From a virus (Duplodnaviria; Heunggongvirae; Uroviricota; Caudoviricetes), in IMG/VR virus record IMGVR_UViG_2541047882_000004: 38,061 nt of DNA. One strand, written 5' to 3'. The notes beneath the pieces are model-generated. The model was not told where the DNA came from. It did not search any database and saw only the letters and a list, made by a program, of their open reading frames with translations. Positions 1 through 24,702 of this stretch are shown here, piece by piece. How positions within the stretch are numbered: the first letter of the stretch is position 1; each line of letters begins with the position of its first letter. The position numbers were made by a program, and so were the translations under genes.

Positions 1-1314
1 CTAACCCACTGATTTTAATAAGTCTCTTGTGTCACTTTGGTGACCATGGGACATCATTGGGACATAATCTGCCAGCTTCTGATTCAGCATTGCGATCTGT
101 TCTGCATTACTGTCAGTCATCCATGCTCCGTATACATTGAACACCATCTGGGCACTTGCATGGCCCATCTGGCTGGCAATGAAGCTTGGGTTTGCTCCGG
201 CAGATAATGACCAGCACGCATAAGTGTGTCGTGACTGGTATGCTTTCCGGTGCCTGATGCCCGCACGCTTAATGGCTGTTTCCCATGAGTCGCCAATAGA
301 ATCTACCTTGTAGATAAAACCGACCTGTTTGCTTTTTCTAACCACCTGGGGGTTAAATACGAAAGTACATTCATGGTTCACTGTACGTCCATATTCACGT
401 AGTTGAACCTTGATGTGGTGCTGCTTACCCAGTCTTGTCATTTCAGCCTGATTTTTCAGGACACTGATAGCGGGCTGGATAAGATGCACAACCCTGTTTG
501 TACTTGCTTCAGTTTTAGGTAGAGTGAACTCACCGAGTTTCGTATAATTGCGCCTGATAGTAATTGTTCCTGCTTTCAGATCGATATCTTCCCAGGCCAG
601 GGAGACCAGTTCACCATGACGCATTCCTGTGTACACAGCCAATGACCACAGGTTTTTTGTCTGCTGATGCCGGCAAGCATCTATCAGGCGAATAAATTCG
701 TCACGAGTTAGCGGATCTGGCTCTGCCCTGGCTCTTTTAAGAGGCTTAATTCCCTCGAAGGGATTTGCTTCTAAGTAACCGTGATCTGCAGCAAACTGAA
801 ACATTCCAGCGATTGTCGTCATATAATAATTTACAGTAACGACGCTCCGTCCTCTTGCTGGTGATTTGTCTTTCGTTGAATTCTGATATCCGGTCAGCAA
901 ATCTTTCCTGATATACAGTAATTCCTCTTTGGTCACCGTTGACACCAGTCTGCTACCTCCAATTTTCGGAACCACCGTTCTTGCAACGGATTCATAGCGA
1001 TTGAATGCATTTGCAGAGATTTCCATGCGTTTCAGATCCAGCCACTTTTCTTCAAGCTCTTTCACCGTAATTTCTTTTTTATTTACCCCAAAAGCCTTGA
1101 GGTTAGGAGAGTCAGGGAACTGCGCAGCGTAATCAAAGTTTCCTGTACGAATGGCAAAACATACAGATGTCCGCAGCTCTCCGGCGATCTTCCTGTTCTT
1201 GGCAGTGTCAGGGACACCAAGATTTTCCCTGACACGTTTACCTTTAAAATTAAACCAGATGCGTAATGTGCCACCGTGGTTTTCGACGCCTGTTGGATAT
1301 TTGACTTTATCCAT
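1..1314 (-). CDS. int: Tyrosine-type site-specific integrase
   Basis: 437 aa ORF; C-terminal catalytic region with R...HxxR...Y signature context (RHGEL..., SRHTYACW...); stop codon is at window positions 1-3, so the gene is complete. Confidence 0.9.
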   Translation of the reverse strand: MDKVKYPTGVENHGGTLRIWFNFKGKRVRENLGVPDTAKNRKIAGELRTSVCFAIRTGNFDYAAQFPDSPNLKAFGVNKKEITVKELEEKWLDLKRMEISANAFNRYESVARTVVPKIGGSRLVSTVTKEELLYIRKDLLTGYQNSTKDKSPARGRSVVTVNYYMTTIAGMFQFAADHGYLEANPFEGIKPLKRARAEPDPLTRDEFIRLIDACRHQQTKNLWSLAVYTGMRHGELVSLAWEDIDLKAGTITIRRNYTKLGEFTLPKTEASTNRVVHLIQPAISVLKNQAEMTRLGKQHHIKVQLREYGRTVNHECTFVFNPQVVRKSKQVGFIYKVDSIGDSWETAIKRAGIRHRKAYQSRHTYACWSLSAGANPSFIASQMGHASAQMVFNVYGAWMTDSNAEQIAMLNQKLADYVPMMSHGHQSDTRDLLKSVG

Positions 1315-2450: not shown

Positions 2451-3278
2451 TTATTTAACCTGGATAAATGGTGTACTGGCGCCGCTGGTCATGTATTGCG
2501 GCAGTGTGCCGTTCCATTTATTGATGGCTTCCAGCTCCATAACACCGGGGTTCTGGCGCAGAGCTTCACCGCGTAAACGAATAGCATCGGCTTCAGCCTG
2601 GGCTTTTGTGCGAATCGCATCTGCCTGTCCGGCAGCTTCCGCGCGCAACATGTTGGCTTCCGCTTCGCGCTGTTTAACTTCCTGCTCGCGCTGCAGTGTT
2701 TTCTGGTTCGCCGTGACTTTGGCATTAATGCTGTCGAGAACGGTTGGCGGATACTCCGGCTTACCCACATATGAGAGGCTCATTACCTGAATACCGATGG
2801 GCGTCATTTCTTCCTGAATGTCTTTAAGAGCAGCATCCAGCAGCTCAGACTTGCCGCCGTCGATAAATTTGTCGGTGGTCATTTTGCTGGCCAGTCGGTT
2901 AAGTGCGTCGGCGATCTTCTGACGCAGGTCGGTGTCGGTAATGTCATCCACGCCTTTGCGGTAGGTCTGAAACACCGTGGTAACTTTGGATGGATCAACT
3001 TTGTAGGCCACGCCAATGTGATAGCCGATGGTTGTACCGTCACTCATCTGGAAACTGAACGGTTCATCGTAGGTCTTCATTTGCTTGAAGGTGGGGAAGA
3101 TGTAAACTTCAGTATTCCAGCCAGTCCAGTAGCGACCAACACCGACCACCTCACCGACGCCTTTGTCGTCGCCCAGTTTATTTACCTTGATGCCAACATT
3201 ACCTGGTTCAACGCGATCGCAACCGACAAGGCCAATAGTCGGCAGAACAATGGCTAAAGCAAAAATAATTTTTTTCAT
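2451..3278 (-). CDS. SPFH/band-7 (stomatin/prohibitin-like) lipoprotein
   Basis: 275 aa; N-terminal signal peptide with lipobox LVGC; central SPFH-like region followed by an Ala/Glu/Gln-rich coiled coil (QREQEVKQREAEANMLRAEAAGQADAIRTKAQAEADAIR); AAGGA RBS. Confidence 0.8.
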   Translation of the reverse strand: MKKIIFALAIVLPTIGLVGCDRVEPGNVGIKVNKLGDDKGVGEVVGVGRYWTGWNTEVYIFPTFKQMKTYDEPFSFQMSDGTTIGYHIGVAYKVDPSKVTTVFQTYRKGVDDITDTDLRQKIADALNRLASKMTTDKFIDGGKSELLDAALKDIQEEMTPIGIQVMSLSYVGKPEYPPTVLDSINAKVTANQKTLQREQEVKQREAEANMLRAEAAGQADAIRTKAQAEADAIRLRGEALRQNPGVMELEAINKWNGTLPQYMTSGASTPFIQVK

Positions 3279-3463
3279 CTTTTATCCTTAGTGAAAGAAA
3301 GACCCTTGTAAATGGCATAAATGCAGGGCGGGGTCAGAAACGCCAGTGCAAAGCCAGAAATAACTGCTATCGTATCCTTCATGGATATAAGGAACGGAAC
3401 AAGTAATCCGTAAATACATGCGATAATTGCCAGTAAAATTACTATTGTGAAATACAGTCTCAT
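3275..3463 (-). CDS. Small hydrophobic membrane protein (62 aa)
   Basis: Two predicted transmembrane helices; its stop overlaps the SPFH start (ATGA), suggesting translational coupling. Confidence 0.5.
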   Translation of the reverse strand: MRLYFTIVILLAIIACIYGLLVPFLISMKDTIAVISGFALAFLTPPCIYAIYKGLSFTKDKR

Positions 3464-3486
3464 TGGTCTGTGGTATCCCGATATTT

Positions 3487-3594
3487 TTAACCGACTGACA
3501 GCACAATAAAGAGAATAATGATTTCAGTTAGTGTCAGTACTGTGGCAAGGATTAAAATCAGTTTTACTCTGTTTAATTCACGGTTGCTTTTCAT
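3487..3594 (-). CDS. Small membrane peptide (35 aa)
   Basis: Hand-translated ORF MKSNRELNRVKLILILATVLTLTEIIILFIVLSVG; single hydrophobic helix; no clear RBS. Confidence 0.2.
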   Translation of the reverse strand: MKSNRELNRVKLILILATVLTLTEIIILFIVLSVG

Positions 3595-3606
3595 ACAAAC
3601 GGTTAG

Positions 3607-3632
3607 TAAAAAACGGAAGAATTATATTCTTC
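3607..3632 (-). terminator. Rho-independent terminator after the 193 aa gene
   Basis: Plus-strand stem GAAGAAT/ATTCTTC (3616-3632) with a 3 nt loop; on the minus strand it is followed by a T tract (plus-strand A run 3608-3613). Confidence 0.5.
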
Positions 3633-3639
3633 TTAATAT

Positions 3640-4221
3640 TTAATGTGTCACTGGCGCTTCTGGCATACTATGAGTATTCAGGTCGTTAATCATTTCATCC
3701 AGAAGGAGTTCAAGCCCTTCGCGCCCCATAGCAGAGACAATGAAACCATTATCAGGATCTGCGATGAGCATTTTTTGATAGAGAAACAGAACTCGCCCCA
3801 TGCCTTCAGCTTCGCCATATTTTTCAATAAATCCCCATTCGACATGGTTTTGCAGGGCAATGCGAAGTGGTCCGGGGTAGATACTCAGGCAACCATGTTT
3901 CCCCTTGTAAATAACTGCGCGATCTGTAGTTCCATTATCGTTAGGGATATCAACAGTGCCGTTCTTGTCTTCCTCTTCATTTATAAATGTCGTCACATAC
4001 AGCCATCGCCACTGAGCAACCTTCATATCGACTGAAAATCGTCCCAGCAACCCTGCATCATCGGCTTCAGCAATACATTGCATGATTCTTAAACCGTGTG
4101 AGTTTGGATAATCGTATTCACCATCATTAAGTCGCTGTACGGCATCAACAAAATCAATGGTTGTATTGCCAATTTTTATGCCATGTGGCGTAACTTCTGG
4201 TCGGAACTCTGAATGATTCAT
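3640..4221 (-). CDS. Hypothetical protein (193 aa), unknown function
   Basis: Track ORF 3640..4296 trimmed to the Met at 4221 (MNHSEF...), preceded by AAGGAG; its ATG overlaps the stop of the upstream 62 aa gene (ATGA). Confidence 0.6.
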   Translation of the reverse strand: MNHSEFRPEVTPHGIKIGNTTIDFVDAVQRLNDGEYDYPNSHGLRIMQCIAEADDAGLLGRFSVDMKVAQWRWLYVTTFINEEEDKNGTVDIPNDNGTTDRAVIYKGKHGCLSIYPGPLRIALQNHVEWGFIEKYGEAEGMGRVLFLYQKMLIADPDNGFIVSAMGREGLELLLDEMINDLNTHSMPEAPVTH

Positions 4222-4406
4222 AATGTTTGCTCCTTTGCTGGTGGAATAATCGTGTAGCCAGCTCTTTTTGCCATCCACAGAAATGTATCCATGCAACCAA
4301 CGAATTCATTATCCAACAGATGTTTTGAGTAAATTACTTCACCATTTTCAATGGTTAGCAACACTCTTACTTTTTTATGTGTTATGTTTTGTTGTTTTTC
4401 TTCCAT
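4218..4406 (-). CDS. Hypothetical small protein (62 aa)
   Basis: Track ORF 4218..4421 trimmed to the second ATG, which has a GGGAGA RBS 7 nt upstream; coupled to the 193 aa gene. Confidence 0.5.
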   Translation of the reverse strand: MEEKQQNITHKKVRVLLTIENGEVIYSKHLLDNEFVGCMDTFLWMAKRAGYTIIPPAKEQTL

Positions 4407-4410
4407 TGAC

Positions 4411-4524
4411 TTATCTCCCATATGCTTTGCGCAAATACAGGCTGGCTATATGAAGATAAGAATCTCCATGTTGTGCAATGAGGCAGGCAGTTTTATACGA
4501 TGCCTTATGTTTCAGGAAAGTCAT
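4411..4524 (-). CDS. Candidate leader or small basic peptide (37 aa)
   Basis: Hand-translated MTFLKHKASYKTACLIAQHGDSYLHIASLYLRKAYGR; strong AGGAGA RBS 7 nt upstream; its stop lies 4 nt before the next start. Confidence 0.25.
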   Translation of the reverse strand: MTFLKHKASYKTACLIAQHGDSYLHIASLYLRKAYGR

Positions 4525-4602
4525 AACATAATCTCCTGCGAATAAAGGTTGCAACAATCCCCGGCGATAAAACCGTAATAAACATTCAGGGAATATTTAT
4601 TG

Positions 4603-4974
4603 TTATTGCGCTAATTCTTTTTCGGCAGCAGATTTTGCATATTCACATGCAAAATTCAGAATTTCGCTGCCAAGTGTTTTTGTTTCGTGATTACTGGACA
4701 TATGTAATACCTGTGTTGCATGCAATAAATGATAAACATTTACCGCAAATGAGTCCGGCTCCAGACAAATGCCTTCATAATCATCTTGTTGTGAGGTTGT
4801 TTCTGTCATTGCTCCTGAAGTGCATGCGAGTCTGTTTTTGACAATTCTCTTTCCTCTAATCACTATATCGGCAACATCTATTGCCTTTACAACCTCCGGG
4901 AGAAGTTCCGGGTTTGTATAATCAAAGTCATCAACATGGAGAACGGTTATGTTTTCGAACTTTTTCATGCGCAA
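4603..4974 (-). CDS. Hypothetical protein (123 aa), unknown function
   Basis: Track ORF; overlaps the stop of the upstream HTH gene by 10 nt, so likely co-translated; no motif recognised. Confidence 0.6.
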   Translation of the reverse strand: MRMKKFENITVLHVDDFDYTNPELLPEVVKAIDVADIVIRGKRIVKNRLACTSGAMTETTSQQDDYEGICLEPDSFAVNVYHLLHATQVLHMSSNHETKTLGSEILNFACEYAKSAAEKELAQ

Positions 4975-7899: not shown

Positions 7900-8130
7900 G
7901 TTCCGGCACCTTATAAAGCGGGTGCCGGGATTGGAACCCCGGAATTGCATACGGCGATATACGACGCGCCAGCGTCTTTTTTATCGTCCATGCTCGCGCA
8001 CGCCAGAATTATGGTGGGCTGGGCAGGGGAGCCGAAAGGCTCGCCGGTTTCCGTATGCGCCGGTAGTTCCAACCCTGTCCAGTCCGCCACCAGTGAGATT
8101 GGAACCTCCGGTGGTGGAAGTTATCCATTG
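7900..8130 (+). ncRNA. Candidate structured RNA or cis-regulatory leader (put/nut-like); function unknown
   Basis: GC-rich segment open in three frames; perfect 8 bp inverted repeat CCGGCACC/GGTGCCGG (7903-7928); GNRA hairpin GAGCC-GAAA-GGCTC (8029-8042); TTCCAA/TTGGAA long-range complement. Confidence 0.25.
7963..7982 (+). terminator. Intrinsic terminator within the Lar-Rha untranslated region
   Basis: Stem GACGC/GCGTC (7963-7976) with loop GCCA, followed by TTTTTT (7977-7982). Confidence 0.4.
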
Positions 8131-12227: not shown

Positions 12228-12481
12228 ACAACCAGACAATGACGTTTACCCCTGAACAACTACGTAAACAGGCACAGGAAATGTTGCGACAGGCGGAACA
12301 ACTGGAAAAAACAGGTGTAACAAAAGATGCCATTCGTCGGGATATGGTGCCGGCGCTCAGGGAACTGATGCAGGCGAAACATCGCGCACAAAAAGCAGTG
12401 GATGAGCTGGTGGATTGTGTGGCGGAGCTGGAAACCAAAGTTGGAAAGTTTGAAAAGCTGGTGCAGGAGGTACTGCGCTGA
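12224..12481 (+). CDS. Hypothetical coiled-coil protein (85 aa)
   Basis: Track ORF with predicted helical, charged sequence; start is TTG (GGAG RBS) or the ATG at 12239. Confidence 0.45.
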   Translation: MNNQTMTFTPEQLRKQAQEMLRQAEQLEKTGVTKDAIRRDMVPALRELMQAKHRAQKAVDELVDCVAELETKVGKFEKLVQEVLR

Positions 12482-12828
12482 TGCGTGATATGTACGAAGT
12501 TTTAGATCGTTGGGGGGCTTGGGCTGCAGCAGAAAATAGTGGTGTCGACTGGCAGCCGATAGCGGCTGGTTTCAAGGGGCTTCTACCACACGGTAAAAAG
12601 TCACGTCTCCAGTGCGATGATGATGAAGGAATTATGATTGATGGATGTGTGGCCCGGTTGCGGAAATATAAACCAGAAGAATATGAGCTGATCATTGCTC
12701 ACTTTGTTATTGGTGTTTCTCTACGCTCAATCGCGAAGAAACGCAGGTGCTCAGATGGAACTATAAGAAAGGAGCTGCAAACTGCATTAGGCTTTATTGA
12801 TGGATGTAGATGCTTGATTCTATCATAG
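12481..12828 (+). CDS. Q-like late-gene antiterminator
   Basis: 115 aa; MRDMYEVLDRWGAWAA...IAAGFKGLL...CDDDEG...CSDG matches the Q-antiterminator family pattern as I recall it from E. coli cryptic prophages; GGAGGTA RBS. Confidence 0.7.
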   Translation: MRDMYEVLDRWGAWAAAENSGVDWQPIAAGFKGLLPHGKKSRLQCDDDEGIMIDGCVARLRKYKPEEYELIIAHFVIGVSLRSIAKKRRCSDGTIRKELQTALGFIDGCRCLILS

Positions 12829-13476: not shown

Positions 13477-14355
13477 TTAAAGTAGTTTCCTATCTGCCGC
13501 CGCTCTGTGGCGTATAACCTTAGTAATACTATAGCGTGGTTTAGACAGCGCGCCATTTGTTTCTTTTGTTGTTTCTGTCAGTTCTACAACAAAAAGATCA
13601 CCCTTACAGAATGCTGCTTGGTTGTGTTCAACCCGTTCAAGAAAAGCCTCATCTTTCATAGATGCGCTAACTTCTTCGCCATTTGGCAGGATGATATCCC
13701 AGCTTTTGCCTTGCTTGAATCGAACATTAGCAAAATGTACATTAGCTTGGCGTGTCGTTACGTGCGTTTTCTCGACAAAGGTGGATTTTGCAGTTTTAAA
13801 ACTTGCTGCTTCAGCTTGCGTCACCCTGACTACCTTATGCTTCTGCTGTGAAACTGAGAACGTGGATGGTTTTTCAGTCTGCAGGGGTTTATAGATTAAT
13901 TTATCCAGTTCTTTTCGGATGATTGGACTGGTTATTAATTTTTGAATGTCGTTACTGCATTTAACCTTCTCACCATCCACTTCGATTTCTGCTGTATCTT
14001 TTTGTTCATCGACGACAATGGAGCTGATTTTACGCCCTTTGAGCCATTCGATTATCCCGAGTACGCCGCCTGCGGCAACTCCACCACCAGCAACGAGGCC
14101 AAGAGCGTTAATAGTTTTTATGCTTCCCATCACAGCAACAAGCAAAGTAAATGAACCTTCTTTTGTTGCCTTGATGTTGACTTTCGGCTCTGCTGTTTCG
14201 CCATTAATTATTTTTTCGGCATGTTCAATCAGGGCACTAAGAGAGGTTAAGGCTTCGCCTAATGTTTTGGCGTCGATCTGATTATCTGCGTATGCCTCTC
14301 CACCGTAGGCAATTTCGATTTCTGTTATTGGCATGTTTTCGAGCTGCTGTGCCAT
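13477..14355 (-). CDS. Hypothetical protein (292 aa) with central Gly-rich hydrophobic segment
   Basis: Track ORF 13477..14388 trimmed to ATG 14355 (AAGGA RBS 8 nt upstream); central LLVAVMGSIKTINALGLVAGGGVAAGGVLGIIEWL segment; no family recognised. Confidence 0.6.
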   Translation of the reverse strand: MAQQLENMPITEIEIAYGGEAYADNQIDAKTLGEALTSLSALIEHAEKIINGETAEPKVNIKATKEGSFTLLVAVMGSIKTINALGLVAGGGVAAGGVLGIIEWLKGRKISSIVVDEQKDTAEIEVDGEKVKCSNDIQKLITSPIIRKELDKLIYKPLQTEKPSTFSVSQQKHKVVRVTQAEAASFKTAKSTFVEKTHVTTRQANVHFANVRFKQGKSWDIILPNGEEVSASMKDEAFLERVEHNQAAFCKGDLFVVELTETTKETNGALSKPRYSITKVIRHRAAADRKLL

Positions 14356-14622
14356 CAAAAGCATCCTTTGCGAAAGATAAATAGCCACAGGATACAGATA
14401 ATTATGAAAAAATCACTAACGCGTACGCAAAAAATATCTTAATCTGTTAAGAGTGGTTACTTCGCCACACAGCTTAAACCCGCCGCCGGGCGTTTTTTCT
14501 ATACCTGAAAAACGGCACAGGACGTTAAATGCGCTGGTGGTTGCGAATACGAGGCTTTCAGCTTGCTGGCTTTTTCGACAAGAGTTATTGGTATGTCACG
14601 TTAACCAGAAAAGGGAAAAGAC

Positions 14623-14970: not shown

Positions 14971-16011
14971 ATGGCTAATACTGTAAAAATATCCAGTTGT
15001 GAGTTAATCAACGCTGATTGCCTGGAATTTATCCAGACCTTACCGGAAAACTCTGTCGATCTGATAGTCACAGACCCGCCATACTTTAAAGTGAAGCCCG
15101 AGGGCTGGGATAACCAGTGGAAAGGTGACGATGATTACCTGAAATGGCTGGACCAGTGTCTGGCGCAATTCTGGCGGGTACTGAAGCCTGCCGGAAGTCT
15201 CTACCTGTTCTGTGGTCATCGCCTGGCATCTGATATCGAAATCATGATGCGTGAGCGCTTTAATGTGCTGAACCACATTATCTGGGCGAAGCCGTCCGGA
15301 CGCTGGAACGGATGCAACAAGGAAAGCCTGCGGGCGTATTTCCCTGCAACAGAACGCATTCTGTTTGCAGAACATTATCAGGGGCCATACCAGCCCAAAA
15401 ATGACGGCTATGCGGCAAAGGGACGCGAGCTAAAACAGCACGTCATGGCCTCGCTGATTTCTTACTTTCGTGATGCGCGTGAATCACTGGGAATAACGTC
15501 AAAACAGATAGCGGAAGCCACCGGAAAGAAAAATATGGCTTCGCACTGGTTTGGTGCCAGTCAGTGGCAGTTACCGAACGAAGCTGATTACAGAAAACTG
15601 CAGGCATTGTTTGCGCGTGTTGCAGCAGAAAAGCATCAGCGCGGGGAACTGGAAAAGCCACACCACCAGCTGGTCAGCACATACAGTGAACTGAACCGGC
15701 AATACGCCAGCCTGCTGGAAGAGTACAAATCCCTGCGGCGTTATTTTTCCGTATCGGCAGCTGTTCCTTATACGGATGTCTGGACGCATAAACCTGTACA
15801 GTTTTATCCGGGCAAACATCCCTGTGAAAAACCGGCGGATATGTTGCGGCAGATAATTAACGCCAGTAGCCGTCCCGGTGATTTGGTCGCTGACTTTTTT
15901 ATGGGGTCTGGCTCAACAATAAAAGCAGCACTTTCGCTGGGGCGTCGTGCGGTTGGCGTGGAACTGGAAGAAGAGAGATTTAATCAGACTGTAAGTGAAA
16001 TAAAAAAATAG
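14971..16011 (+). CDS. Orphan DNA methyltransferase (beta-class amino-methyltransferase, N6-adenine or N4-cytosine)
   Basis: Motif IV DPPY near the N-terminus and AdoMet motif I FFMGSGST near the C-terminus (beta-class order); no restriction endonuclease partner adjacent. Confidence 0.85.
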   Translation: MANTVKISSCELINADCLEFIQTLPENSVDLIVTDPPYFKVKPEGWDNQWKGDDDYLKWLDQCLAQFWRVLKPAGSLYLFCGHRLASDIEIMMRERFNVLNHIIWAKPSGRWNGCNKESLRAYFPATERILFAEHYQGPYQPKNDGYAAKGRELKQHVMASLISYFRDARESLGITSKQIAEATGKKNMASHWFGASQWQLPNEADYRKLQALFARVAAEKHQRGELEKPHHQLVSTYSELNRQYASLLEEYKSLRRYFSVSAAVPYTDVWTHKPVQFYPGKHPCEKPADMLRQIINASSRPGDLVADFFMGSGSTIKAALSLGRRAVGVELEEERFNQTVSEIKK

Positions 16012-16337: not shown

Positions 16338-16597
16338 CTAACAGTAGACGATGCCAGGCTGTGTTGGGCACTGACACATTTTATGTGGGGCGTTTTTCCT
16401 GACTCCTTACCTCGCCCTGTACTGTAATGAGTGATATCGGTTGCAGCACCAGTGCCATTTTTTACGCCACCGGAATGGTGCATTATTGGTAGAGATTTGC
16501 AATGTCTCTGGCAGGGGGCTGGTAATGCATCATTCCGATGTTGTAAACATCGCTCAGATAACGTTGAAATCAATCAAACCCAGGAAATACATCCTTA

Positions 16598-16622
16598 ACC
16601 GCCGCACCAGGCGGTTTTTTTA
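16598..16622 (+). terminator. Intrinsic terminator downstream of the tRNA region
   Basis: Stem ACCGCC/GGCGGT (16598-16615) with loop GCACCA, followed by TTTTTTT. Confidence 0.5.
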
Positions 16623-16642
16623 TTCACAATCCTGTTTCTTAT

Positions 16643-16668
16643 GGCTCGCTACGGCGGGCCTTTTTTAT
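16643..16668 (+). terminator. Second tandem intrinsic terminator
   Basis: Stem GGCTCGC/GCGGGCC with loop TACG, followed by TTTTTT. Confidence 0.4.
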
Positions 16669-16802: not shown

Positions 16803-17228
16803 ATGTTTGGTATTTTCAAAAAGAAAACCCGCAAGGCCATTACCGAAGTGAAGAAGATGGAGAACCGCGACGCAGTGGAGGCGACCGTCTGGGGTGCGTA
16901 TTCCATTGCATATGCTGACGGCACCTGTGACGCGAAAGAAATCGCAGTACTGGAGAAAACCATTGCAGCACTTCCTGCCTTTGCGCCGTTCTCCGGTGAG
17001 ATTGCACAAATGAGTGCAAATATCCGCGCCCGTTATGAAGCGTCACCTCGTAGTGCGAATGCTCAGGCTTTGCGTGAACTGGCTGATGTGGCAGGAACCG
17101 CCGAAGCGGTTGATGTGCTGTGCCTGTGTCTTGATATTGCTGACCAGGACGGCATTGGTCCGGATGAAGAAGCGCAGCTCAAGAAAATTGCTCAGGCGCT
17201 GCAGTTGCCGCTGGAGCAGTACCTGTGA
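16803..17228 (+). CDS. TerB-like protein
   Basis: 141 aa; paired ADG...D..E...L and IADQDGIGPDEEAQL motifs characteristic of TerB-type domains; AAAAGGAAAAG RBS. Confidence 0.6.
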   Translation: MFGIFKKKTRKAITEVKKMENRDAVEATVWGAYSIAYADGTCDAKEIAVLEKTIAALPAFAPFSGEIAQMSANIRARYEASPRSANAQALRELADVAGTAEAVDVLCLCLDIADQDGIGPDEEAQLKKIAQALQLPLEQYL

Positions 17229-17383
17229 AAAGTGCGCGCCTTGTGCTGGCTGCCATCCTGCTGTTTCTGGTAGTGGTGGTGGATTTTACCGGACGGCTGA
17301 TGTCGGTGCTGGCAGATGGTGTGCTGGTGGCGATGGCGCTGGTCGTGCTCCGGCCTTTATTCCGGAACAAAAACAACGGCTGA
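17225..17383 (+). CDS. Small membrane peptide (52 aa, GTG start)
   Basis: Hand-translated VKSARLVLAAILLFLVVVVDFTGRLMSVLADGVLVAMALVVLRPLFRNKNNG; start overlaps the TerB stop (GTGA); two hydrophobic helices. Confidence 0.35.
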   Translation: MKSARLVLAAILLFLVVVVDFTGRLMSVLADGVLVAMALVVLRPLFRNKNNG

Positions 17384-17390
17384 TTATTTG

Positions 17391-17420
17391 AGCGGGCATT
17401 TAAAGCCCGCTGCATTTTTA
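17391..17420 (+). terminator. Intrinsic terminator between convergent genes
   Basis: Stem AGCGGGC/GCCCGCT (17391-17411) with loop ATTTAAA, then a T-rich tail. Confidence 0.45.
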
Positions 17421-18098
17421 TTGCTGTTGTTCCTTAATGCGTTCCGGTAGCACAAATGCCACTTCAAGGAACAAGCGGAGAAACGCCACAAACTCTTTTG
17501 CCTGCTCATCACTGGCCTCGAGTTCGTGCACAGCTTCATTTCCTTCCATACGGATTCGGTGAGCCCAGTTTCTCATTGATTCCGTCAGTATGCCGTCCTG
17601 CCGTGCCAGTTCAATGCGTGACAGCAGATTGCCTTTTTCGTACCCCAGGGCACGGAGGGCAACCTCGAGGACGCTACGGCAGCCAACAATGATACGCGGG
17701 GCAGTTCTGCCGGACCGAACATCCTCCTGCAACTCAGTGAAGACTGCGCGAATTTTTTCGGGATAGTGGGGGGAGTCATCGGGCAGCCTGAGTTCAGGAT
17801 AGATTTTGATGCTCCCCTCAAGTGGAGCATTCAGCACCCAGGCTTTGTTGTTGATGGCTTTTTTCATGTCCACCAGTTCACTGACTGAACATTCGAATGT
17901 GATCATTAATGGGTTGTTGCATTCTGTGCAAAAGTCCGTTGAGTATGCTTTTGCTGATGTTATTTCAGAAGTACGCGGCTGTTGCACGTAAAGCTTGTTT
18001 TCTGTAGCTGGATGTCTGCTGTGGTACTGGGTGACCTCATTCAGAGAAATATGAACCTGATGAAGGCAGTACGGGCATTTAATTTTCAGGGAGTACAT
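17418..18098 (-). CDS. Zinc-ribbon protein with C-terminal DUF4145-like domain
   Basis: Track ORF 17418..18287 trimmed to ATG 18098 (GAAGAGG RBS); N-terminal CPYC...CTEC zinc-ribbon pattern; C-terminal region recalled as DUF4145-like. The upstream extension is Cys/Arg-rich and not protein-like. Confidence 0.55.
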   Translation of the reverse strand: MYSLKIKCPYCLHQVHISLNEVTQYHSRHPATENKLYVQQPRTSEITSAKAYSTDFCTECNNPLMITFECSVSELVDMKKAINNKAWVLNAPLEGSIKIYPELRLPDDSPHYPEKIRAVFTELQEDVRSGRTAPRIIVGCRSVLEVALRALGYEKGNLLSRIELARQDGILTESMRNWAHRIRMEGNEAVHELEASDEQAKEFVAFLRLFLEVAFVLPERIKEQQQ

Positions 18099-18305
18099 AT
18101 GACCTCTTCGACAGAAGTGATAACTGAATTTGAAAATTGCATAGCAGATTCTGCCATTGATTCTGTAGCAGCGATAGAACGAAGGTTTGCTGCTGCTCAG
18201 ACCCGGTATGGTCATGATGCAGCCGTCAAGGGGCTGGCAATGGCGTTTGTTATTGCAGAGAACCGCCGTCGCTTTATTGAAGCGCAAATGGCACTAAAGC
18301 AATAA
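18099..18305 (+). CDS. Hypothetical small protein (68 aa)
   Basis: Part of track ORF 17982..18305; ATG 18099 has an AGGGAG RBS 6 nt upstream; helical-looking sequence; start abuts the divergent gene start (shared CATATG). Confidence 0.4.
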   Translation: MTSSTEVITEFENCIADSAIDSVAAIERRFAAAQTRYGHDAAVKGLAMAFVIAENRRRFIEAQMALKQ

Positions 18306-18356: not shown

Positions 18357-18379
18357 GGGCCGCTGGTGGCCCTTTTTTA
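18357..18379 (+). terminator. Intrinsic terminator just upstream of the lysis cassette (possible tR'-like)
   Basis: Stem GGGCC/GGCCC with loop GCTGGT, followed by TTTTTT. Confidence 0.45.
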
Positions 18380-20349: not shown

Positions 20350-20850
20350 GTGGATAAGGAATTGAAACACCTTGTTCTTAATGTCAGCCAGTTAGCTGCG
20401 CTGTCGGGTGTGCACCGACAGACTGTCGCATCAAGAATCAAAAATGTCCGAACAGCGGGTGGGCATGAGAGTAACCTCAAGCTGTATAAACTTACTGATA
20501 TTCTGGCAGAGCTAATGAAGTTGCCACCACCTGTCGCTGAAGGGGAAATGGATCCCCATGACCGAAAAGCCTGGTATCAGTCAGAACGGGAACGTCTGAA
20601 ATTCGAACAGGAGGTCGGAGAACTGATCCCTGCGTCTGATGTCGCCCGTGAATTTGCTGAAATGGCAAAGGCTATGGTGCAGGTTCTGGAAACTCTCCCC
20701 GATATTCTTGAACGCGATTGCGCTCTCGAGCCTTCGGCTGTCATGCGGGTGCAAAGCATTATTGATGATTTGCGTGACGAAATTGCGCGGCGGGTGGCAG
20801 ATGACAGCAAACAGGAAGATACAGAGGAGGAAAATCAGGAGGACGAATAA
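20350..20850 (+). CDS. Terminase small subunit (Nu1-like)
   Basis: 166 aa; GTG start with GGAGGGG RBS; N-terminal HTH LNVSQLAALSGVHRQTVASRIK resembles lambda Nu1; acidic C-terminus; directly upstream of the large subunit. Confidence 0.7.
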   Translation: MDKELKHLVLNVSQLAALSGVHRQTVASRIKNVRTAGGHESNLKLYKLTDILAELMKLPPPVAEGEMDPHDRKAWYQSERERLKFEQEVGELIPASDVAREFAEMAKAMVQVLETLPDILERDCALEPSAVMRVQSIIDDLRDEIARRVADDSKQEDTEEENQEDE

Positions 20851-22967
20851 TGCCTGTGCAGGCGACCGCCAGATCGTTGAAACTGGATACGGGCCAGTTA
20901 ATTAAAGCGCCGCGCAGGATGCCTGTTGCCGAAGCGGTACAAAAATTTATGCGAGTCCCTACATCTGGTGGCAACTCTGTTCCGTGGGATCCGCTGGTTG
21001 CACCGTATGTGATTGAACCCATGAACTGCCTGTCGTCCCGTGAGTTTGATGCGGTTGTTTTTGTTGGCCCTGCCCGTACGGGCAAGACTAACGGCCTGAT
21101 TGATGGCTGGGTGGTTTATAACATTGTTTGCGATCCGTCAGACTTTTTGCTGGTGCAGATGACGCAGGATAAGGCGCAGGAGCACTCCAAAAAGCGCCTG
21201 GCAAGAACATTTCGTTGCAGTCCGGAGGTCAGAAAACGCCTCAGCCCACGCCGCAACGATAACAACGTTCATGACAAATATTTTCTGTCAGGAAGCTTTC
21301 TGAAAATCGGCTGGCCCTCCATCAATGTCATGTCATCCTCTGATTTTAAATGTGTGGCGCTGACTGATTACGACCGATTTCCTGAAGATATCGATGGCGA
21401 AGGTGATGGTTTCTCCCTGGCTTCAAAACGTACCACCACATTTATGTCAGCTGGTATGACGCTGGTGGAGAGTTCTCCCGGGCGTGAAATCACAAACAGC
21501 AAATGGCGCAGAACGTCACCGCATGAAGCCCCGCCCACCACGGGGATCCTTTCTCTGTATAACCGTGGCGATCGTCGTCGCTGGTACTGGCCCTGTCCGG
21601 ATTGCGGTGATTATTTCCAGCCATCGATGGAGGCTATGACGGGATATCGTGACAATCCTGATCCTGTAAAAGCCAGTGAAGCGGCTCATATATTGTGTCC
21701 GCATTGTGGCAGTCAAATCACTGCAGATATGAAGCGTGAACTGAATGGTCGCGGCGTCTGGTTGCGTGAAGGTGAGCAGATTGACAGAGAAGGGAATGTT
21801 ACCGGAACGCCACGTCATTCAAGGATAGCCAGCTTCTGGATGGAAGGCCCCGCTGCAGCCTATCAGACCTGGGCGCAACTGGTTTACAAACTACTGACTG
21901 CTGAGCAGGAATATGAAGCCACAGGCAGTGAGGAAACACTGAAGGCGGTGATTAACACCGACTGGGGATTGCCTTATTTGCCTCGTTCCGCCATGGAGTT
22001 GCGCAGTGCAGATGTTCTGATGCAGCGGGCTGAGGATTACGGTAAGCGCCTGGTACCGCCGAAAGTGCGTTTTCTTATTGCGGCTGTGGACGTGCAGGGC
22101 GGGAAGAACCGACGGTTTGTGGTGCAGATTATTGGCTATGGCGAGGACGGCGAACGCTGGCTGGTGGACCGTTATAACATCCGACAGTCATTGCGTTGCG
22201 ATGAAAATGGCGAAGCATTACCTGTGCATCCCGGAGCTTACCCTGAAGACTGGCAGTTGCTGGTCACCGATGTACTGGAGAAAACGTATCCGCTCCAGTC
22301 CGATCCGGCCCGCAGAATGCCTGTACTGGCAATGGCGGTGGACAGTGGTGGTGAGGACGGGGTGACGGATAACGCCTATAAATTCTGGCGAAAATGTCGT
22401 CAGGATGGACTGGGGCGACGGGTTTTTCTGGTAAAGGGAGACAGCACGAAACGCCAGAAAATTATCACCATCACACACCCGGATAATACCGGGCGAAGCG
22501 ATCGCCGTGCGGATGCTCAGGGAAAGGTGCCGGTATATCTCCTGCAGACAGACCTGCTGAAAGATCAACTAAGCAATAACCTGCAACGTGAAATGCCCGG
22601 ACCGGGCTACATTCATTTTCCTGACTGGCTCGGGGAGTGGTTTTATGAAGAGTTGACCTATGAGGAACGCGGTGCTGACGGGAAATGGCGCAAGCCAGGA
22701 AAAGGGAATAACGAAGCATTTGACCTTTTTTGCTATGCCCATGCCGTCGCCATTCTGCGTGGCTATGAAAAAATCCGTGACTGGAACAACCCTCCCCAGT
22801 GGGCAAGAGGGCAGAATGCTGACGCTGGGGCTTCAGCAGACGGACGTTCTTCCGGCACAGTGGACAAGAAAAACGTTGCCGGAAGAGATGAGCGGCAAAA
22901 AGCAGCATCGTCGGAAGCGTTATCCGGAAACTGGTTATCACTACCCCGAAACGGAGGATGGTTGTGA
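20850..22967 (+). CDS. Terminase large subunit (lambda gpA-like)
   Basis: 705 aa; Walker A VGPARTGKT; GGAGGA RBS; start overlaps the small-subunit stop (TAATG). Confidence 0.9.
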   Translation: MPVQATARSLKLDTGQLIKAPRRMPVAEAVQKFMRVPTSGGNSVPWDPLVAPYVIEPMNCLSSREFDAVVFVGPARTGKTNGLIDGWVVYNIVCDPSDFLLVQMTQDKAQEHSKKRLARTFRCSPEVRKRLSPRRNDNNVHDKYFLSGSFLKIGWPSINVMSSSDFKCVALTDYDRFPEDIDGEGDGFSLASKRTTTFMSAGMTLVESSPGREITNSKWRRTSPHEAPPTTGILSLYNRGDRRRWYWPCPDCGDYFQPSMEAMTGYRDNPDPVKASEAAHILCPHCGSQITADMKRELNGRGVWLREGEQIDREGNVTGTPRHSRIASFWMEGPAAAYQTWAQLVYKLLTAEQEYEATGSEETLKAVINTDWGLPYLPRSAMELRSADVLMQRAEDYGKRLVPPKVRFLIAAVDVQGGKNRRFVVQIIGYGEDGERWLVDRYNIRQSLRCDENGEALPVHPGAYPEDWQLLVTDVLEKTYPLQSDPARRMPVLAMAVDSGGEDGVTDNAYKFWRKCRQDGLGRRVFLVKGDSTKRQKIITITHPDNTGRSDRRADAQGKVPVYLLQTDLLKDQLSNNLQREMPGPGYIHFPDWLGEWFYEELTYEERGADGKWRKPGKGNNEAFDLFCYAHAVAILRGYEKIRDWNNPPQWARGQNADAGASADGRSSGTVDKKNVAGRDERQKAASSEALSGNWLSLPRNGGWL

Positions 22968-23190: not shown

Positions 23191-24702
23191 ATGGGTTTTT
23201 TTGATAAAGCACTTGGTGCAATTGCGCCAGGGTGGGCAGTTTCGCGCGCCAGAAACAAAATGCTGCTGAGAGCTTATGAGGCGGCGCAGCCTTCACGCCT
23301 GAATAAAGCCCGGCGTGAGAGTCGTTCTGCCGATACAGCAGTTTTTTCTGCCGGCACTTCGTTAAGGGAGCAGGCCAGGGCGCTGGATGAAGATCATGAT
23401 ATCGTGATTGGTCTGCTGGATAAGCTGGAAGAGCGGGTTATTGGTGCGCAGGGGATCCAGGTTGAACCACAACCACTGAGAAGCGATGGCACCCTGCATG
23501 AATTGCTGGCAGAGCAGATCTCGGCATTGTGGTCTGAATGGTCTGTTCGCCCTGAGGTCACGGGGATGTTCACTCGCCCGGAGGCCGAACGGATGGCATT
23601 GCGATCTGCTTTGCGTGATGGCGAGATGTTCGTACAACTGGTGCGTGGTCCTGTCGCCGGTCTGAATCATTCCACTGTGGTGCCATTATCACTGGAACTT
23701 CTCGAAGCAGATTTTGTTCCGGTCAGTCTGAACACGAACGCGGGTCAGCAAGTCCGCCAGGGCATTATTCTTAACAACTGGGGGCGGCCTGTAGGGTATC
23801 GGGTTTATAAATACCATCCTGCAAATATGCGTGGATTCAGCGCCGATCTCAAAACTGTTCACGCAGACAACATGCTTCATCTGGCGATGCGGAAACGGCT
23901 TCATCAGGTGAGAGGTGTCAGCCTGTTACATGGTGTGATTCGCCGGATTGCTGATCTGAAAGATTACGAAGAATCAGAGCGTGTGGCTGCCCGTATTGCT
24001 GCCGCGCTGGGTTTCTACATTAAGCGTGGTGATGCCGCCAGCTTTCCGACGGATAACGACTGGACACCCACAGAACAAAAACCCCGGTACTTTGATATTT
24101 CGCCGGGCATGATTTTTGACGAACTGGCCCCCGGTGAAGATCTGGGGATGGTGGAGTCGAATCGTCCGAATGTTCATCTTTATGAATTCCGGAACGGGCA
24201 GTTGCGTGCTGTGGCTGCCGGAACCCGTGGCAGTTATTCCAGTATTGCCCGTGACTATAACGGCTCCTACAGTTCGCAGCGTCAGGAGCTGGTGGAAGGT
24301 TACGAAGGCTACGGGGTTTTACAGCAGTGGTTTGTCGGTCAGTACAGCCGCCCGGTGTACCGGGCATGGCTGGAGCAGGCGATACCTTTTCTTGAAATTC
24401 CTCCTGATGTGGATATGTCCACGCTTTTCAATGCCACTTATCTTGGCCCGGTGATGCCGTGGATTGATCCGGTGAAGGAGGCTGCAGCATGGCGGGCCAT
24501 TCTTCGCGGTGGTGCCGGGACGGAGGCCGAGTGGATACGTGCCCGTGGGCAGTCACCGCAGGAGGTCAAACGTCAGCGACTGCGTGAAACTGAATTTAAC
24601 CGGGAAAACGGGCTGGTGTTCGATTCTGACGCCGCTAACGATAAAGGAGTGATCCCTGATGCAGCAAATGATAAACCCGCGTCTTCGCGGGACGATGATT
24701 AA
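23191..24702 (+). CDS. Portal protein (lambda gpB-like)
   Basis: 503 aa ORF in the portal position with lambda B-like size and sequence character. Confidence 0.85.
   Translation: MGFFDKALGAIAPGWAVSRARNKMLLRAYEAAQPSRLNKARRESRSADTAVFSAGTSLREQARALDEDHDIVIGLLDKLEERVIGAQGIQVEPQPLRSDGTLHELLAEQISALWSEWSVRPEVTGMFTRPEAERMALRSALRDGEMFVQLVRGPVAGLNHSTVVPLSLELLEADFVPVSLNTNAGQQVRQGIILNNWGRPVGYRVYKYHPANMRGFSADLKTVHADNMLHLAMRKRLHQVRGVSLLHGVIRRIADLKDYEESERVAARIAAALGFYIKRGDAASFPTDNDWTPTEQKPRYFDISPGMIFDELAPGEDLGMVESNRPNVHLYEFRNGQLRAVAAGTRGSYSSIARDYNGSYSSQRQELVEGYEGYGVLQQWFVGQYSRPVYRAWLEQAIPFLEIPPDVDMSTLFNATYLGPVMPWIDPVKEAAAWRAILRGGAGTEAEWIRARGQSPQEVKRQRLRETEFNRENGLVFDSDAANDKGVIPDAANDKPASSRDDD

What the first reader, a model, noticed from the sequence alone, without database searches (positions are those of the whole stretch)
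16803..18305. TerB-like gene with membrane peptide, convergent zinc-ribbon/DUF4145-like protein, and back-to-back start codons
Between the tRNAs and the lysis cassette lie a TerB-like protein, a GTG-initiated 52 aa membrane peptide overlapping its stop, and a convergent 226 aa protein with an N-terminal CxxC...CxxC zinc ribbon and a C-terminal region I recall as DUF4145-like, a domain common in defence-associated proteins. That protein's ATG is the reverse complement of the ATG of a 68 aa plus-strand ORF (shared CATATG at 18096-18101), so either the two genes have promoters embedded in each other's coding sequence or one call is wrong.
Basis: partly seen in the sequence, partly recalled or inferred. 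Interest (0 to 1): 0.45.

Follow-up and report, generated by a model that had tools for sequence, protein, structure and literature searches.

The report
Prophage RAZR-like RNase with head-to-head partner
A prophage carries a likely abortive-infection RNase gene (zinc ribbon plus HEPN domain, a distant relative of the RAZR defence protein) whose start codon abuts, on the opposite strand, the start codon of a conserved 68-residue gene, and this pairing recurs in unrelated prophages, which suggests a built-in switch that turns the defence off when the prophage itself goes lytic.

Summary
Window 16803-18305 holds tciA/TerB-like (16803-17228, +), tciB/DUF3927 (17225-17383, +, GTG start), a 226-aa Cys4 zinc-ribbon + DUF4145 protein (17418-18098, -) and a 68-aa ORF (18099-18305, +). 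The last two share CATATG at 18096-18101.

Both back-to-back calls are real genes. The 68-aa protein defines an unannotated family (21 clusters in 5.8 billion proteins). In at least 10 phage contexts it sits head-to-head (gap +2 to -2 nt) with close homologues of the DUF4145 protein. Both genes are under purifying selection and diverge in step.

tciAB is an independent neighbour, homologous to P1 tciAB, not part of the module.

In every context examined the RNase gene is the lone gene antisense to the phage operon, and the small gene is co-oriented with it.

Best hypothesis (inferred, about 0.4): the RNase defends the lysogen. On induction, lytic read-through silences it by antisense transcription and makes the small protein as its inhibitor. 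This would be analogous, not homologous, to Tha/Ith of staphylococcal phages.

Verdict: new variant of a known kind.

The parts
16803..17228 (+). tciA, a TerB-family protein (141 aa). It is a neighbouring moron and not part of the module.
   Evidence: Pfam TerB 1.7e-7 and phrog_632 1.9e-65. About 81% nucleotide identity to phage P1 tciA. PGAP calls it 'tellurite resistance TerB family protein' in the near-identical locus L001.
17225..17383 (+). tciB, a DUF3927 membrane peptide (52 aa, GTG start overlapping the tciA stop). It is translationally coupled to tciA and is not part of the module.
   Evidence: Pfam DUF3927 2.6e-14 and phrog_1470 'TciB-like' 3e-24. PGAP annotates the same pair in L001, L002 and L003.
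17391..17411 (.). GC-rich hairpin between the two convergent stop codons (tciB and the RNase gene), followed by a T-run on the + strand. It would end tciAB transcripts in the lysogen and shield the RNase gene from antisense read-through.
   Evidence: Terminator-like hit AGCGGGCATTTAAAGCCCGCT + GCATTTTTAT. A different hairpin occupies the same position in L004, so the hairpin belongs to the flank and not to the module.
17418..18098 (-). RAZR-like protein, 226 aa. It has an N-terminal Cys4 zinc ribbon (residues 1-71, nt 17886-18098), a linker, and a C-terminal DUF4145/HEPN domain (residues about 114-225, nt 17424-17759). The putative catalytic residues are R183 (17550-17552) and H191 (17526-17528).
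18096..18101 (.). CATATG junction: the two start codons abut with no gap. Each gene's Shine-Dalgarno sequence lies in codons 2-5 of the other (AAGAGG for the minus gene at about 18103-18108; GGGAG for the plus gene at about 18089-18093).
   Evidence: Sequence read. The junction geometry and SD-like runs are conserved in 8 further loci.
18099..18305 (+). Small partner gene, 68 aa. It is a confidently predicted three-helix protein belonging to no described family, and the proposed inhibitor or regulator of the RNase.
   Evidence: Homologues abut the RNase start in L004, L005, L007-9, L014-22 and L028-30. The family has 21 clusters. There is no Pfam, PHROG, PADLOC or PDB match. AF2 pLDDT 93, helices 2-12, 19-37 and 39-67. 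dN/dS is 0.09 against L004, and pN is far below pS in all pairs.
18148..18165 (-). Candidate embedded promoter for the RNase gene. It comprises an extended -10-like TGGCAGAAT (18156 to 18148) and a second CAGAAT (18165 to 18160), 50-67 nt upstream of the ATG. Both are antisense to the conserved (A/C)(D/E)S..DS motif of the small protein (residues 16-22; S18, D21 and S22 are invariant).
   Evidence: NAGAAT or TAGAGT recurs at -54 to -68 in 9 of 10 diverged loci. The Ser codon TCT is used at 9 of 16 of these sites against 15% elsewhere in the same genes, p = 2e-4, a post-hoc test. Stricter consensus scans found no promoter, so this part is inferred and not shown.
18357..18372 (+). Backbone terminator-like hairpin (GGGCCGCTGGTGGCCC + T-run) just upstream of the holin start at 18397. 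It belongs to the phage backbone and marks the right-hand edge of the insertion site.
   Evidence: The same sequence follows tciB directly in L002, which lacks the module.

Best explanation
Window 17418-18305 is a compact, mobile two-gene prophage module that runs exactly from stop codon to stop codon.

The minus-strand gene encodes a RAZR-like abortive-infection RNase. It has an N-terminal Cys4 zinc ribbon as the sensor domain and a C-terminal DUF4145/HEPN nuclease with an invariant R183-x7-H191.

The proposed mechanism is as follows (inferred, not shown):
- In the lysogen the RNase gene is transcribed from a promoter embedded in the small gene's coding sequence. The candidate is an extended -10 at 18148-18156.
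- The RNase stays inert until a superinfecting phage makes a trigger. By analogy with RAZR this would be a ring-forming protein such as a portal.
- Once triggered, it cleaves RNA and aborts the infection.
- The plus-strand 68-aa gene lies in the phage's own lytic operon, here the Q-dependent late operon just upstream of the holins, terminase and portal.
- When the prophage is induced, read-through lytic transcription runs antisense across the whole RNase gene. This would cause polymerase collision and a duplex over the RNase mRNA's 5' end and ribosome-binding site.
- The same transcript produces the small three-helix protein, which I propose binds and inhibits the RNase so that the prophage's own portal (23191-24702) does not trigger suicide.

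The neighbouring tciA/tciB pair is an unrelated moron that shares the same cargo hot-spot.

Shown: gene reality, architecture, fold, co-inheritance, orientation rule and module boundaries. Inferred: defence function, trigger, promoter position, inhibitor function and antisense silencing.
For: Gene reality and pairing:
- The small protein's homologues sit head-to-head (gap +2 to -2 nt) with every close full-length homologue of the RNase. The positions include Q-to-holin, lysis-to-terminase, the cro-proximal early operon, a nin-like region and a Mu-like GemA region.
- dN of the two genes tracks closely. Examples are 0.187 against 0.178, 0.356 against 0.349 and 0.583 against 0.522, with pS saturated.

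Architecture of the RNase:
- Pfam DUF4145.
- The four zinc-ribbon Cys are conserved (C57 and C60 invariant), and R183 and H191 are invariant with the same 8-residue spacing as RAZR R146/H154 (PMC13017515).
- 56 of 92 relatives hit the PADLOC PD-T7-4 model.

Orientation rule:
- In every context examined the RNase gene is the lone gene antisense to the flanking phage genes, and the small gene is co-oriented with them.
- In L016, L021 and L022 the small gene is 11 nt from, or overlaps by 4 nt, the next phage gene.

Module boundaries:
- The boundaries are the two stop codons. The right flank is identical to a backbone that lacks the module (L002). The left flank differs between the window and L004. 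The RNase promoter must therefore lie in coding DNA.
- There is a recurrent NAGAAT at -54 to -68 and a TCT codon bias.

The small gene is dispensable for carrying the RNase:
- In the P0009 lineage (L010-13) the small gene has an in-frame stop after 32 codons while the RNase keeps all invariant residues.

Precedent and context:
- Tha/Ith of S. aureus prophages is a HEPN RNase triggered by a structural protein and inhibited by a 66-aa protein from an antisense overlapping gene. That arrangement is required to avoid autoimmunity on induction (PMC11087260).
- The prophage has its own lambda-family portal.
Against: - No experiment or interaction prediction links the small protein to the RNase. Matched dN shows co-inheritance, not binding.
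- The match to the PD-T7-4 model is weak (2.2e-4, HEPN part only). The solved RAZR structures (9Y9C, 9Y6U) were not retrieved by sequence or fold searches. Trigger type and RNase activity are therefore extrapolations.
- No consensus sigma-70 promoter was found on either strand. The -10 candidate is a 4-of-6 match found post hoc.
- Several more distant zinc-ribbon + DUF4145 genes in phages have no partner (L025, L026, phi644-2, Klebsiella phage 2b). Self-immunity can therefore be achieved otherwise, as in Gifsy-1 HepS, where the prophage carries a non-triggering trigger variant (PMC13043305).
- The small protein has no similarity to Ith.
Confidence: 0.42

Rival explanations
1. The small protein is a transcription or translation regulator (a Cro-, Xis- or Cox-like small helical protein, or an RNA-binding factor) that controls the RNase gene or the shared control region. 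It would not be a direct protein inhibitor of the RNase.
For: It is a 68-aa three-helix protein with an invariant basic RRR patch at residues 56-58. The divergent arrangement is typical of a regulator and its target. Ith itself was long annotated as an excisionase.
Against: There is no intergenic DNA to hold an operator, since the gap is 0-2 nt. No HTH or other DNA-binding family matched. The protein is roughly neutral to acidic overall, read from the sequence. The RNase remains intact and conserved where the small gene has decayed.
Confidence: 0.2
2. The pair is a classical toxin-antitoxin system. The HEPN protein would be constitutively toxic, and the small protein would be the antitoxin needed at all times.
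Against: Toxin-antitoxin pairs are co-transcribed, whereas here the genes face away from each other with overlapping 5' regions, which disfavours simultaneous expression. The P0009 lineage (10 member sequences, 7 contigs) keeps an intact RNase beside a small gene that has an in-frame stop after 32 codons. The RAZR paper describes its homologues as inactive until a phage trigger is present. The small protein is not an MNT.
Confidence: 0.1
3. The small protein is chiefly an offensive anti-defence factor. The phage would use it when infecting new hosts that carry RAZR-like systems, and linkage to the RNase gene would be secondary.
For: It is expressed from lytic operons (the orientation rule). 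Ith also helps phages to infect Tha-positive cells.
Against: The small gene was never found away from the RNase gene. Its 21 clusters pair with RNase clusters contig by contig where the listed contig lengths can be compared. A free-standing anti-defence gene would be expected to spread on its own. This rival overlaps with the best explanation and does not exclude it.
Confidence: 0.12
4. One reading: (a) one of the two back-to-back calls is spurious, or (b) the TerB-like pair and the DUF4145 gene form one functional 'convergent gene pair' system.
For: (a) PGAP itself is inconsistent, calling 162 aa in TUM9757 and 225 aa in A34 for the RNase. (b) Anantharaman et al. 2013 note occasional DUF4145 linkage with TerD systems.
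Against: (a) The full 226-aa ORF is intact in TUM9757. The N-terminal M-[YF]-[ST]...CPxC is conserved in all full-length homologues. Both genes show purifying selection. (b) tciAB and the module occur independently of each other.
Confidence: 0.03

Closest known systems
RAZR (ring-activated zinc-finger RNase) = PD-T7-4 (Vassallo et al. 2022, PMC9519451; Zhang et al. 2026, PMC13017515)
   Different: Sequence similarity is only remote: the PD-T7-4 HMM gives E = 2.2e-4 over the HEPN part, and none of the 150 closest relatives is a canonical member. RAZR is described as a single-gene system that often overlaps an integrase gene. Here the gene lies inside lytic operons of prophages and has a conserved head-to-head partner gene. 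The trigger, 24-mer assembly and RNase activity are untested here.
Tha/Ith of Staphylococcus aureus prophages (Rostol et al. 2024, PMC11087260)
   Same: Tha is a prophage-encoded HEPN RNase that defends the lysogen and is triggered by a phage structural protein. A gene of about 66 aa on the opposite strand encodes its inhibitor. [quoted passage not shown]
   Different: There is no sequence similarity in either protein. In 80alpha the two genes overlap at their 3' ends (1525-1725 + against 1662-2567 -). Here the 5' ends abut, start codon to start codon. There the RNase sits in the cI operon and the inhibitor is the antisense gene. Here the RNase is the antisense gene and the small gene sits in the lytic operon. 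The inhibitor function is shown there and only inferred here.
HepS of Gifsy-1 (Sargen et al. 2026, PMC13043305)
   Same: It is a prophage-borne HEPN abortive-infection nuclease activated by a virion structural protein, and it faces the same self-targeting problem.
   Different: HepS is a single HEPN protein with no partner. Self-immunity comes from a non-triggering tail-tip variant. It has neither a zinc ribbon nor a DUF4145 domain.
P1 tciA/tciB (for the left half of the finding)
   Same: 16803-17228 is about 81% identical in DNA to P1 tciA. Both proteins match the PHROGs named for TciA and TciB. The arrangement of overlapping stop and start is the same.
   Different: P1 also has tciC. Here the pair sits in the late region of a phiP27-like prophage. 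The function is uncharacterised in both cases.

Membership tests
RAZR / PD-T7-4 | N-terminal Cys4 zinc-ribbon domain | tested here: met
   C57 and C60 are invariant; C8 and C11 are present in every row that includes the N-terminus and are >=90% conserved across 92 relatives. The AF2 model shows four beta-strands at residues 3-7, 14-18, 48-56 and 63-71.
RAZR / PD-T7-4 | C-terminal DUF4145 domain with a HEPN fold | tested here: met
RAZR / PD-T7-4 | Catalytic Arg and His spaced as R146/H154 (R-x7-H) | tested here: met
   R183 and H191 are invariant in 26 homologues, within the motif R-x2-GNEA-x-H. Catalysis itself was not tested.
RAZR / PD-T7-4 | Significant full-length match to the family's sequence model | tested here: inconclusive
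   PADLOC PDLC04109 gives E = 2.2e-4, 18.7 bits, over residues 89-225 only. Relatives reach 1.1e-10, and some align over the zinc-finger domain as well. The solved RAZR chains were not found in the PDB copies searched.
RAZR / PD-T7-4 | Activation by ring-forming phage proteins, 24-mer assembly, non-specific ssRNA cleavage and an abortive-infection phenotype | not testable with these tools
   This needs phage challenge, co-expression and biochemistry.
Tha/Ith-type prophage HEPN and inhibitor pair | Sequence homology of the RNase to Tha and of the small protein to Ith | tested here: not met
   BLASTP of the small protein against Ith-1 found no alignment. hhalign of A1 against Tha-1 gave probability 0.1.
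Tha/Ith-type prophage HEPN and inhibitor pair | A small gene on the opposite strand, with transcripts that overlap those of the RNase gene, inside a prophage | tested here: met
   The starts are head-to-head with a gap of +2 to -2 nt in at least 10 prophage contexts. Transcript overlap is implied by the geometry. The topology differs from Tha/Ith, being 5'-5' rather than 3'-3'.
Tha/Ith-type prophage HEPN and inhibitor pair | The small protein inhibits the RNase and is needed for prophage induction | not testable with these tools
   This needs genetics and biochemistry.
HEPN-MNT (HepT/MntA) toxin-antitoxin | An adjacent, co-transcribed MNT nucleotidyltransferase antitoxin | tested here: not met
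   The partner is a 68-aa three-helix protein with no Pfam match, and it is divergently oriented.
P1-type tciA/tciB | A TerB-family protein followed by an overlapping DUF3927 membrane peptide, homologous to P1 tciA/tciB | tested here: met
   81% DNA identity to P1 tciA; phrog_632 1.9e-65; phrog_1470 3e-24.
Ter-linked DUF4145 systems (Anantharaman 2013) | Conserved co-occurrence of the DUF4145 gene with Ter-family genes | tested here: not met
   tciAB occurs without the module in L002, L003 and most of 523 E. coli records. The module occurs without tciAB in L004 and in all other contexts.

The most novel reading that the evidence does not exclude
The 68-aa protein would be the first anti-RAZR-type inhibitor. 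The head-to-head pair would be a self-contained life-cycle switch with these properties:
- The RNase promoter is written into the codons of its own inhibitor, antisense to the conserved DS..DS motif.
- Each gene's ribosome-binding site is written into the other's first codons.
- Expression of one gene therefore excludes the other, at both the transcriptional and the translational level.

Positionally equivalent head-to-head small ORFs lie beside very distant zinc-ribbon + DUF4145 genes in the Stx phages POCJ13 and 75/02 and in Paracoccus phage Pben1. These would then be diverged members of the same inhibitor class, making this a general solution to prophage autoimmunity in Proteobacteria.
Probability: 0.3. 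Interest if true: 0.72.

Novelty: new variant of a known kind. Interest (0 to 1): 0.58.

Why it matters
Prophage-borne abortive-infection systems that sense conserved virion proteins must not fire when their own prophage is induced. Only a few solutions are known: Tha/Ith, BstA with its DNA immunity element, and the HepS trigger variants.

RAZR senses portal rings, which every tailed prophage makes. How a prophage could carry a RAZR-type gene safely is therefore an open question that the RAZR paper does not address.

This locus offers a concrete and cheap test system of 888 bp and two genes, found in E. coli. If the small protein is an inhibitor, it would be a tool for probing RAZR-type activation. 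The start-codon-to-start-codon layout would also be an unusually compact example of mutually exclusive gene expression.

The finding also shows that gene callers mishandle this layout, with PGAP giving either 162 or 225 aa for the RNase. As a result the small family is invisible in domain databases.

Tried and rejected
- Consensus promoter scans, both the tool's and my own at 8 or more of 12 matches, found no shared sigma-70 promoter for either gene. Only a relaxed -10 search gave a recurrent element.
- The genome-contig scan returned only 2 loci. Contexts came from the look-up of encoding contigs instead.
- The small protein gave no Pfam, PHROG, PADLOC, PDB-sequence or Foldseek match.
- Profile comparison of the small family with POCJ13 gp21 was negative. 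Homology of the distant positional analogues is therefore unproven, despite a similar C-terminal 'aLA...I.AE.RR' motif.
- Among the 150 closest representatives none is canonical PD-T7-4, so I could not check whether canonical RAZR loci have a partner.
- The literature search for tciA/tciB returned only unrelated Trypanosoma papers.
- Rfam found nothing in the region.
- I rejected tciAB plus DUF4145 as one system, because each occurs without the other.
- I rejected a classical toxin-antitoxin pair because of the divergent layout and the decayed partner in L010-13.
Full report
**1. The observation**

The window is a phiP27-like lambdoid prophage of E. coli. It has these parts:
- an integrase at 1-1314 (-);
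- the antiterminator Q at 12481-12828 (+);
- a late operon on the + strand with GpA-type terminase (20850-22967), a lambda-family portal (23191-24702) and a ClpP-capsid fusion.

- a 141-aa ORF at 16803-17228 (+);
- a 52-aa ORF at 17225-17383 (+), whose GTG start overlaps the preceding stop (GTGA);
- a 226-aa ORF at 17418-18098 (-);
- a 68-aa ORF at 18099-18305 (+).

CATATG at 18096-18101 contains both start codons, so there is no intergenic base.
- TerB (1.7e-7), with phrog_632 at 1.9e-65;
- DUF3927 (2.6e-14), with phrog_1470 'TciB-like';
- DUF4145 (1.5e-11, residues 137-206);
- two CxxC pairs, at residues 8-11 and 57-60.

**2. tciAB is a separate, known unit**

The first two genes are homologues of phage P1 tciA and tciB, with about 81% DNA identity to P1 tciA. 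PGAP annotates them routinely.

Of 5,426 complete E. coli genomes, 515 carry something similar to the 2-kb region, but only 6 carry the 888-bp stretch 17418-18305.
- In L002, tciB is followed directly by the same 'caccacacaaaaggcatctg...' sequence that follows the 68-aa ORF's stop in the window.
- In E. coli A34 (L004) the DUF4145 and 68-aa pair sits before the same holin but behind different upstream genes, without tciAB and with a different hairpin at its left edge.

The inserted unit is therefore exactly the two ORFs, from stop codon to stop codon. The TerB-like pair is merely a neighbour in a cargo hot-spot.

**3. Both back-to-back genes are real and form a module**

Close homologues of the 226-aa protein form 29 clusters, at 42-98% identity, from Enterobacterales to Paraburkholderia. 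I fetched their contexts.

Each one except the P0009 lineage has a divergent ORF of 66-81 aa whose start lies within +2 to -2 nt of the large gene's ATG. The junctions read CATATG, CATnATG, CATATATG or an overlapping CATG, and once use a GTG start.

These small ORFs are mutually homologous. They share the motif F-E-x-C-I-x-D-S-x-x-D-S...E-R-x-F-A-x-A-Q...G-x-D-x-A...L-A-x-A-F-x-I-A-E-x-R-R-R. An HMM built from them finds them in every such locus and nowhere else in the fetched DNA.

A profile search of 5.8 billion proteins finds only 21 clusters. They pair with the large-protein clusters contig by contig where the listed contig lengths can be compared.

Both genes are under purifying selection:
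- dN/dS is 0.09 for both against L004;
- elsewhere pN is 0.16-0.47 against pS of 0.46-0.91;
- their dN values track each other closely across all pairs.

The N-termini of both proteins are conserved from residue 1. Both starts keep purine-rich Shine-Dalgarno-like runs that are encoded by the partner's codons 2-5.

PGAP is inconsistent. It aa in TUM9757, although the 226-aa frame is intact there, and 225 aa in A34.

**4. What the large protein is**

Alignment A1 shows the following:
- the four zinc-ribbon Cys are conserved: C57 and C60 are invariant, and C8 and C11 are present in every sequence that includes the N-terminus;
- the motifs PDDSP-x-YP and ELQED are conserved;
- R183 and H191 are invariant, within R-x2-G-N-E-A-x-H.

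This is the architecture of RAZR (formerly PD-T7-4). RAZR has these reported properties (PMC13017515):
- a Cys4 zinc-finger domain that confers trigger specificity;
- a DUF4145 'divergent HEPN' with catalytic R146 and H154, the same 8-residue spacing as here;
- assembly as a 24-mer around phage portal or Gp77 rings;
- cleavage of ssRNA non-specifically, causing abortive infection.

The relationship is distant:
- The PADLOC PD-T7-4 model scores only 2.2e-4 over the HEPN part.
- An exhaustive profile search finds 104, 746 and 2,539 representatives at E of 1e-30, 1e-10 and 1e-3 or better. Most of the listed hits are about 230 aa and match over the full length.
- 56 of 92 tested representatives hit PD-T7-4, with a best E of 1.1e-10, and some align over the zinc finger as well.

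I therefore call the protein RAZR-like. It shares the architecture and the catalytic motif, its membership by sequence is inconclusive, and its function is untested.

**5. The small protein**

It has no match in Pfam, PHROGs, PADLOC or PDB sequences. AF2 predicts a confident three-helix protein (pLDDT 93), and Foldseek finds nothing significant for it. It is unrelated to Ith-1 of phage 80alpha and is not an MNT.

**6. The orientation rule and packing**

The module was found in these positions:
- between Q and the holin (window, L018-20, L028-30);
- between the lysis genes and the small terminase subunit (L007-9, L016-17);
- next to a Cro-like gene (L021);
- in a nin-like early region (L022);
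- between DUF3164 and GemA of a Mu-like prophage (L014-15).

In every case the RNase gene is the only gene that points against the surrounding phage genes, and the small gene points with them. In L016, L021 and L022 the small gene ends 11 nt before, or overlaps by 4 nt, the next phage gene.

The small gene is therefore part of the phage's lytic transcription units. The RNase gene is a classic antisense, lysogen-expressed moron. Because the conserved DNA is only the two ORFs, the RNase promoter must lie in coding DNA, most simply inside the small ORF.

Strict promoter scans were negative. A relaxed scan finds NAGAAT or TAGAGT at -54 to -68 in 9 of 10 diverged loci. In the window these are TGGCAGAAT at 18156-18148 and CAGAAT at 18165-18160. 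These hexamers are the antisense of the Asp-Ser codons at residues 17-18 and 21-22 of the small protein.

Although synonymous sites are saturated between lineages, the Ser codon at these two positions is TCT in 9 of 16 cases, against 15% elsewhere in the same genes (p = 2e-4). The test is post hoc, so this is suggestive and not proof.

**7. Mechanism proposed**

In the lysogen:
- the tciB-proximal hairpin (17391-17411) and the lack of Q keep plus-strand transcription out of the module;
- the RNase is made from its embedded promoter;
- its 5' UTR is antisense to the first codons of the small gene;
- the RNase waits for a trigger from a superinfecting phage.

On induction:
- Q-modified polymerase reads through the hairpin and runs antisense over the whole RNase gene;
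- it then transcribes the small gene immediately before the holins, terminase and portal;
- the small protein is thus made no later than the prophage's own portal.

I propose that the small protein inhibits the RNase and prevents autoimmunity.

The closest precedent is Tha/Ith in S. aureus prophages. There, a HEPN RNase is triggered by a tail protein and inhibited by a 66-aa protein from an antisense overlapping gene, and the antisense layout is required to balance immunity and autoimmunity (PMC11087260). In that system the overlap is 3'-3' and the strand roles are swapped. The resemblance is analogy, not homology.

Two observations bear on this reading:
- In the P0009 lineage (L010-13) the small gene carries an in-frame stop after 32 codons, next to an inserted NMT1_3 gene, while the RNase keeps all invariant residues. 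This fits a conditional inhibitor and argues against an obligate antitoxin.
- Gifsy-1 HepS shows that a prophage can instead evade its own HEPN defence through a non-triggering variant of the trigger (PMC13043305). This may explain why some distant relatives lack a partner.

**8. How far the arrangement extends**

Among more distant zinc-ribbon + DUF4145 genes, at about 26-33% identity, several have head-to-head small ORFs:
- L023 has a 63-aa ORF.
- The Stx phages POCJ13 and 75/02 have gp20 and gp21 with overlapping CATG starts; gp21 is 81 aa.
- Paracoccus phage Pben1 has CATG starts and a 68-aa ORF.

All of these small ORFs are co-oriented with the flanking phage genes. They show no detectable homology to the window's small family, although they carry a similar C-terminal 'aLA...I.AE.RR' motif.

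Other relatives have no partner: L025, L026, Burkholderia phi644-2 and phiBt-TXDOH, and Klebsiella phage 2b.

Canonical RAZR is reported to overlap an integrase gene. I could not retrieve its locus.

**9. Novelty and verdict**

- The zinc-ribbon + DUF4145 architecture is known: it was noted in 2013 and characterised in 2026.
- tciAB is known.
- I found nothing in the searched literature on the conserved partner gene, its start-codon-to-start-codon layout or its strict orientation rule in prophages.

I rate this a new variant of a known kind. It is of moderate to good interest because it makes the question of how a prophage carries a portal-sensing suicide RNase safely directly testable with an 888-bp module.

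Confidence is high (above 0.85) that both genes are real, form a mobile module, and that the large protein is a RAZR-like HEPN protein. Confidence in the inhibitor and antisense-switch mechanism is about 0.4.

Noticed in passing
window 13477-14388 (-): A 303-aa minus-strand ORF just downstream of Q (12481-12828) matches the PADLOC candidate defence family PDC-S42 at 2e-53 and has no Pfam domain. It is a second antisense cargo gene in the stretch between Q and the lysis genes.
   Followed up: partly
window 7906-8094 (+): Rfam finds isrK (7906-7982, 63.6 bits) and C4 antisense RNA (8007-8094, 84.9 bits). This indicates a P1/P7-type antisense-RNA immunity and antirepressor region in this prophage.
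   Followed up: no
window 14971-16011 (+): An orphan-looking type II DNA methyltransferase (PADLOC MTase_II 1.1e-153) lies between Q and the tRNAs. The same gene flanks the module in other loci (L008, L010).
   Followed up: no
L010-L013 (P0009 lineage), about 300 nt upstream of the RNase start: The small partner gene is a pseudogene here. It has an in-frame stop after 32 codons, and the remaining codons are still recognisable. It lies next to an inserted 281-aa NMT1_3 gene, and the RNase gene is intact.
   Followed up: partly
L032 (Shigella Stx phage POCJ13) 2008-2926; L034 (Paracoccus phage Pben1) 1065-2070: Very distant zinc-ribbon + DUF4145 genes also have a divergent ORF of 68-81 aa whose ATG overlaps theirs in a CATG. 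These ORFs are co-oriented with the flanking phage genes. Homology to the window's small protein is not detectable, but the C-terminal helix motif looks similar.
   Followed up: partly
L001 (E. coli TUM9757) 4020-4700 and L004 (E. coli A34) 3011-3688: RefSeq/PGAP calls the same RNase gene as 162 aa in one genome and 225 aa in another, although the full frame is intact in both. Several 'short' database homologues (P0012, P0014, P0024) may be start-calling artefacts caused by the back-to-back layout.
   Followed up: partly
window 18147-18164: The small protein's (D/E)S dipeptides at residues 17-18 and 21-22 use the Ser codon TCT far more often than other Ser positions in the same genes (9 of 16 against 15%). 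This hints at a nucleotide-level constraint on the opposite strand.
   Followed up: partly
window 16597-16660 (+): Two strong terminator-like hairpins lie between the tRNAs and tciA. Together with the hairpin at 17391-17411 they bracket tciAB as a self-contained moron.
   Followed up: no
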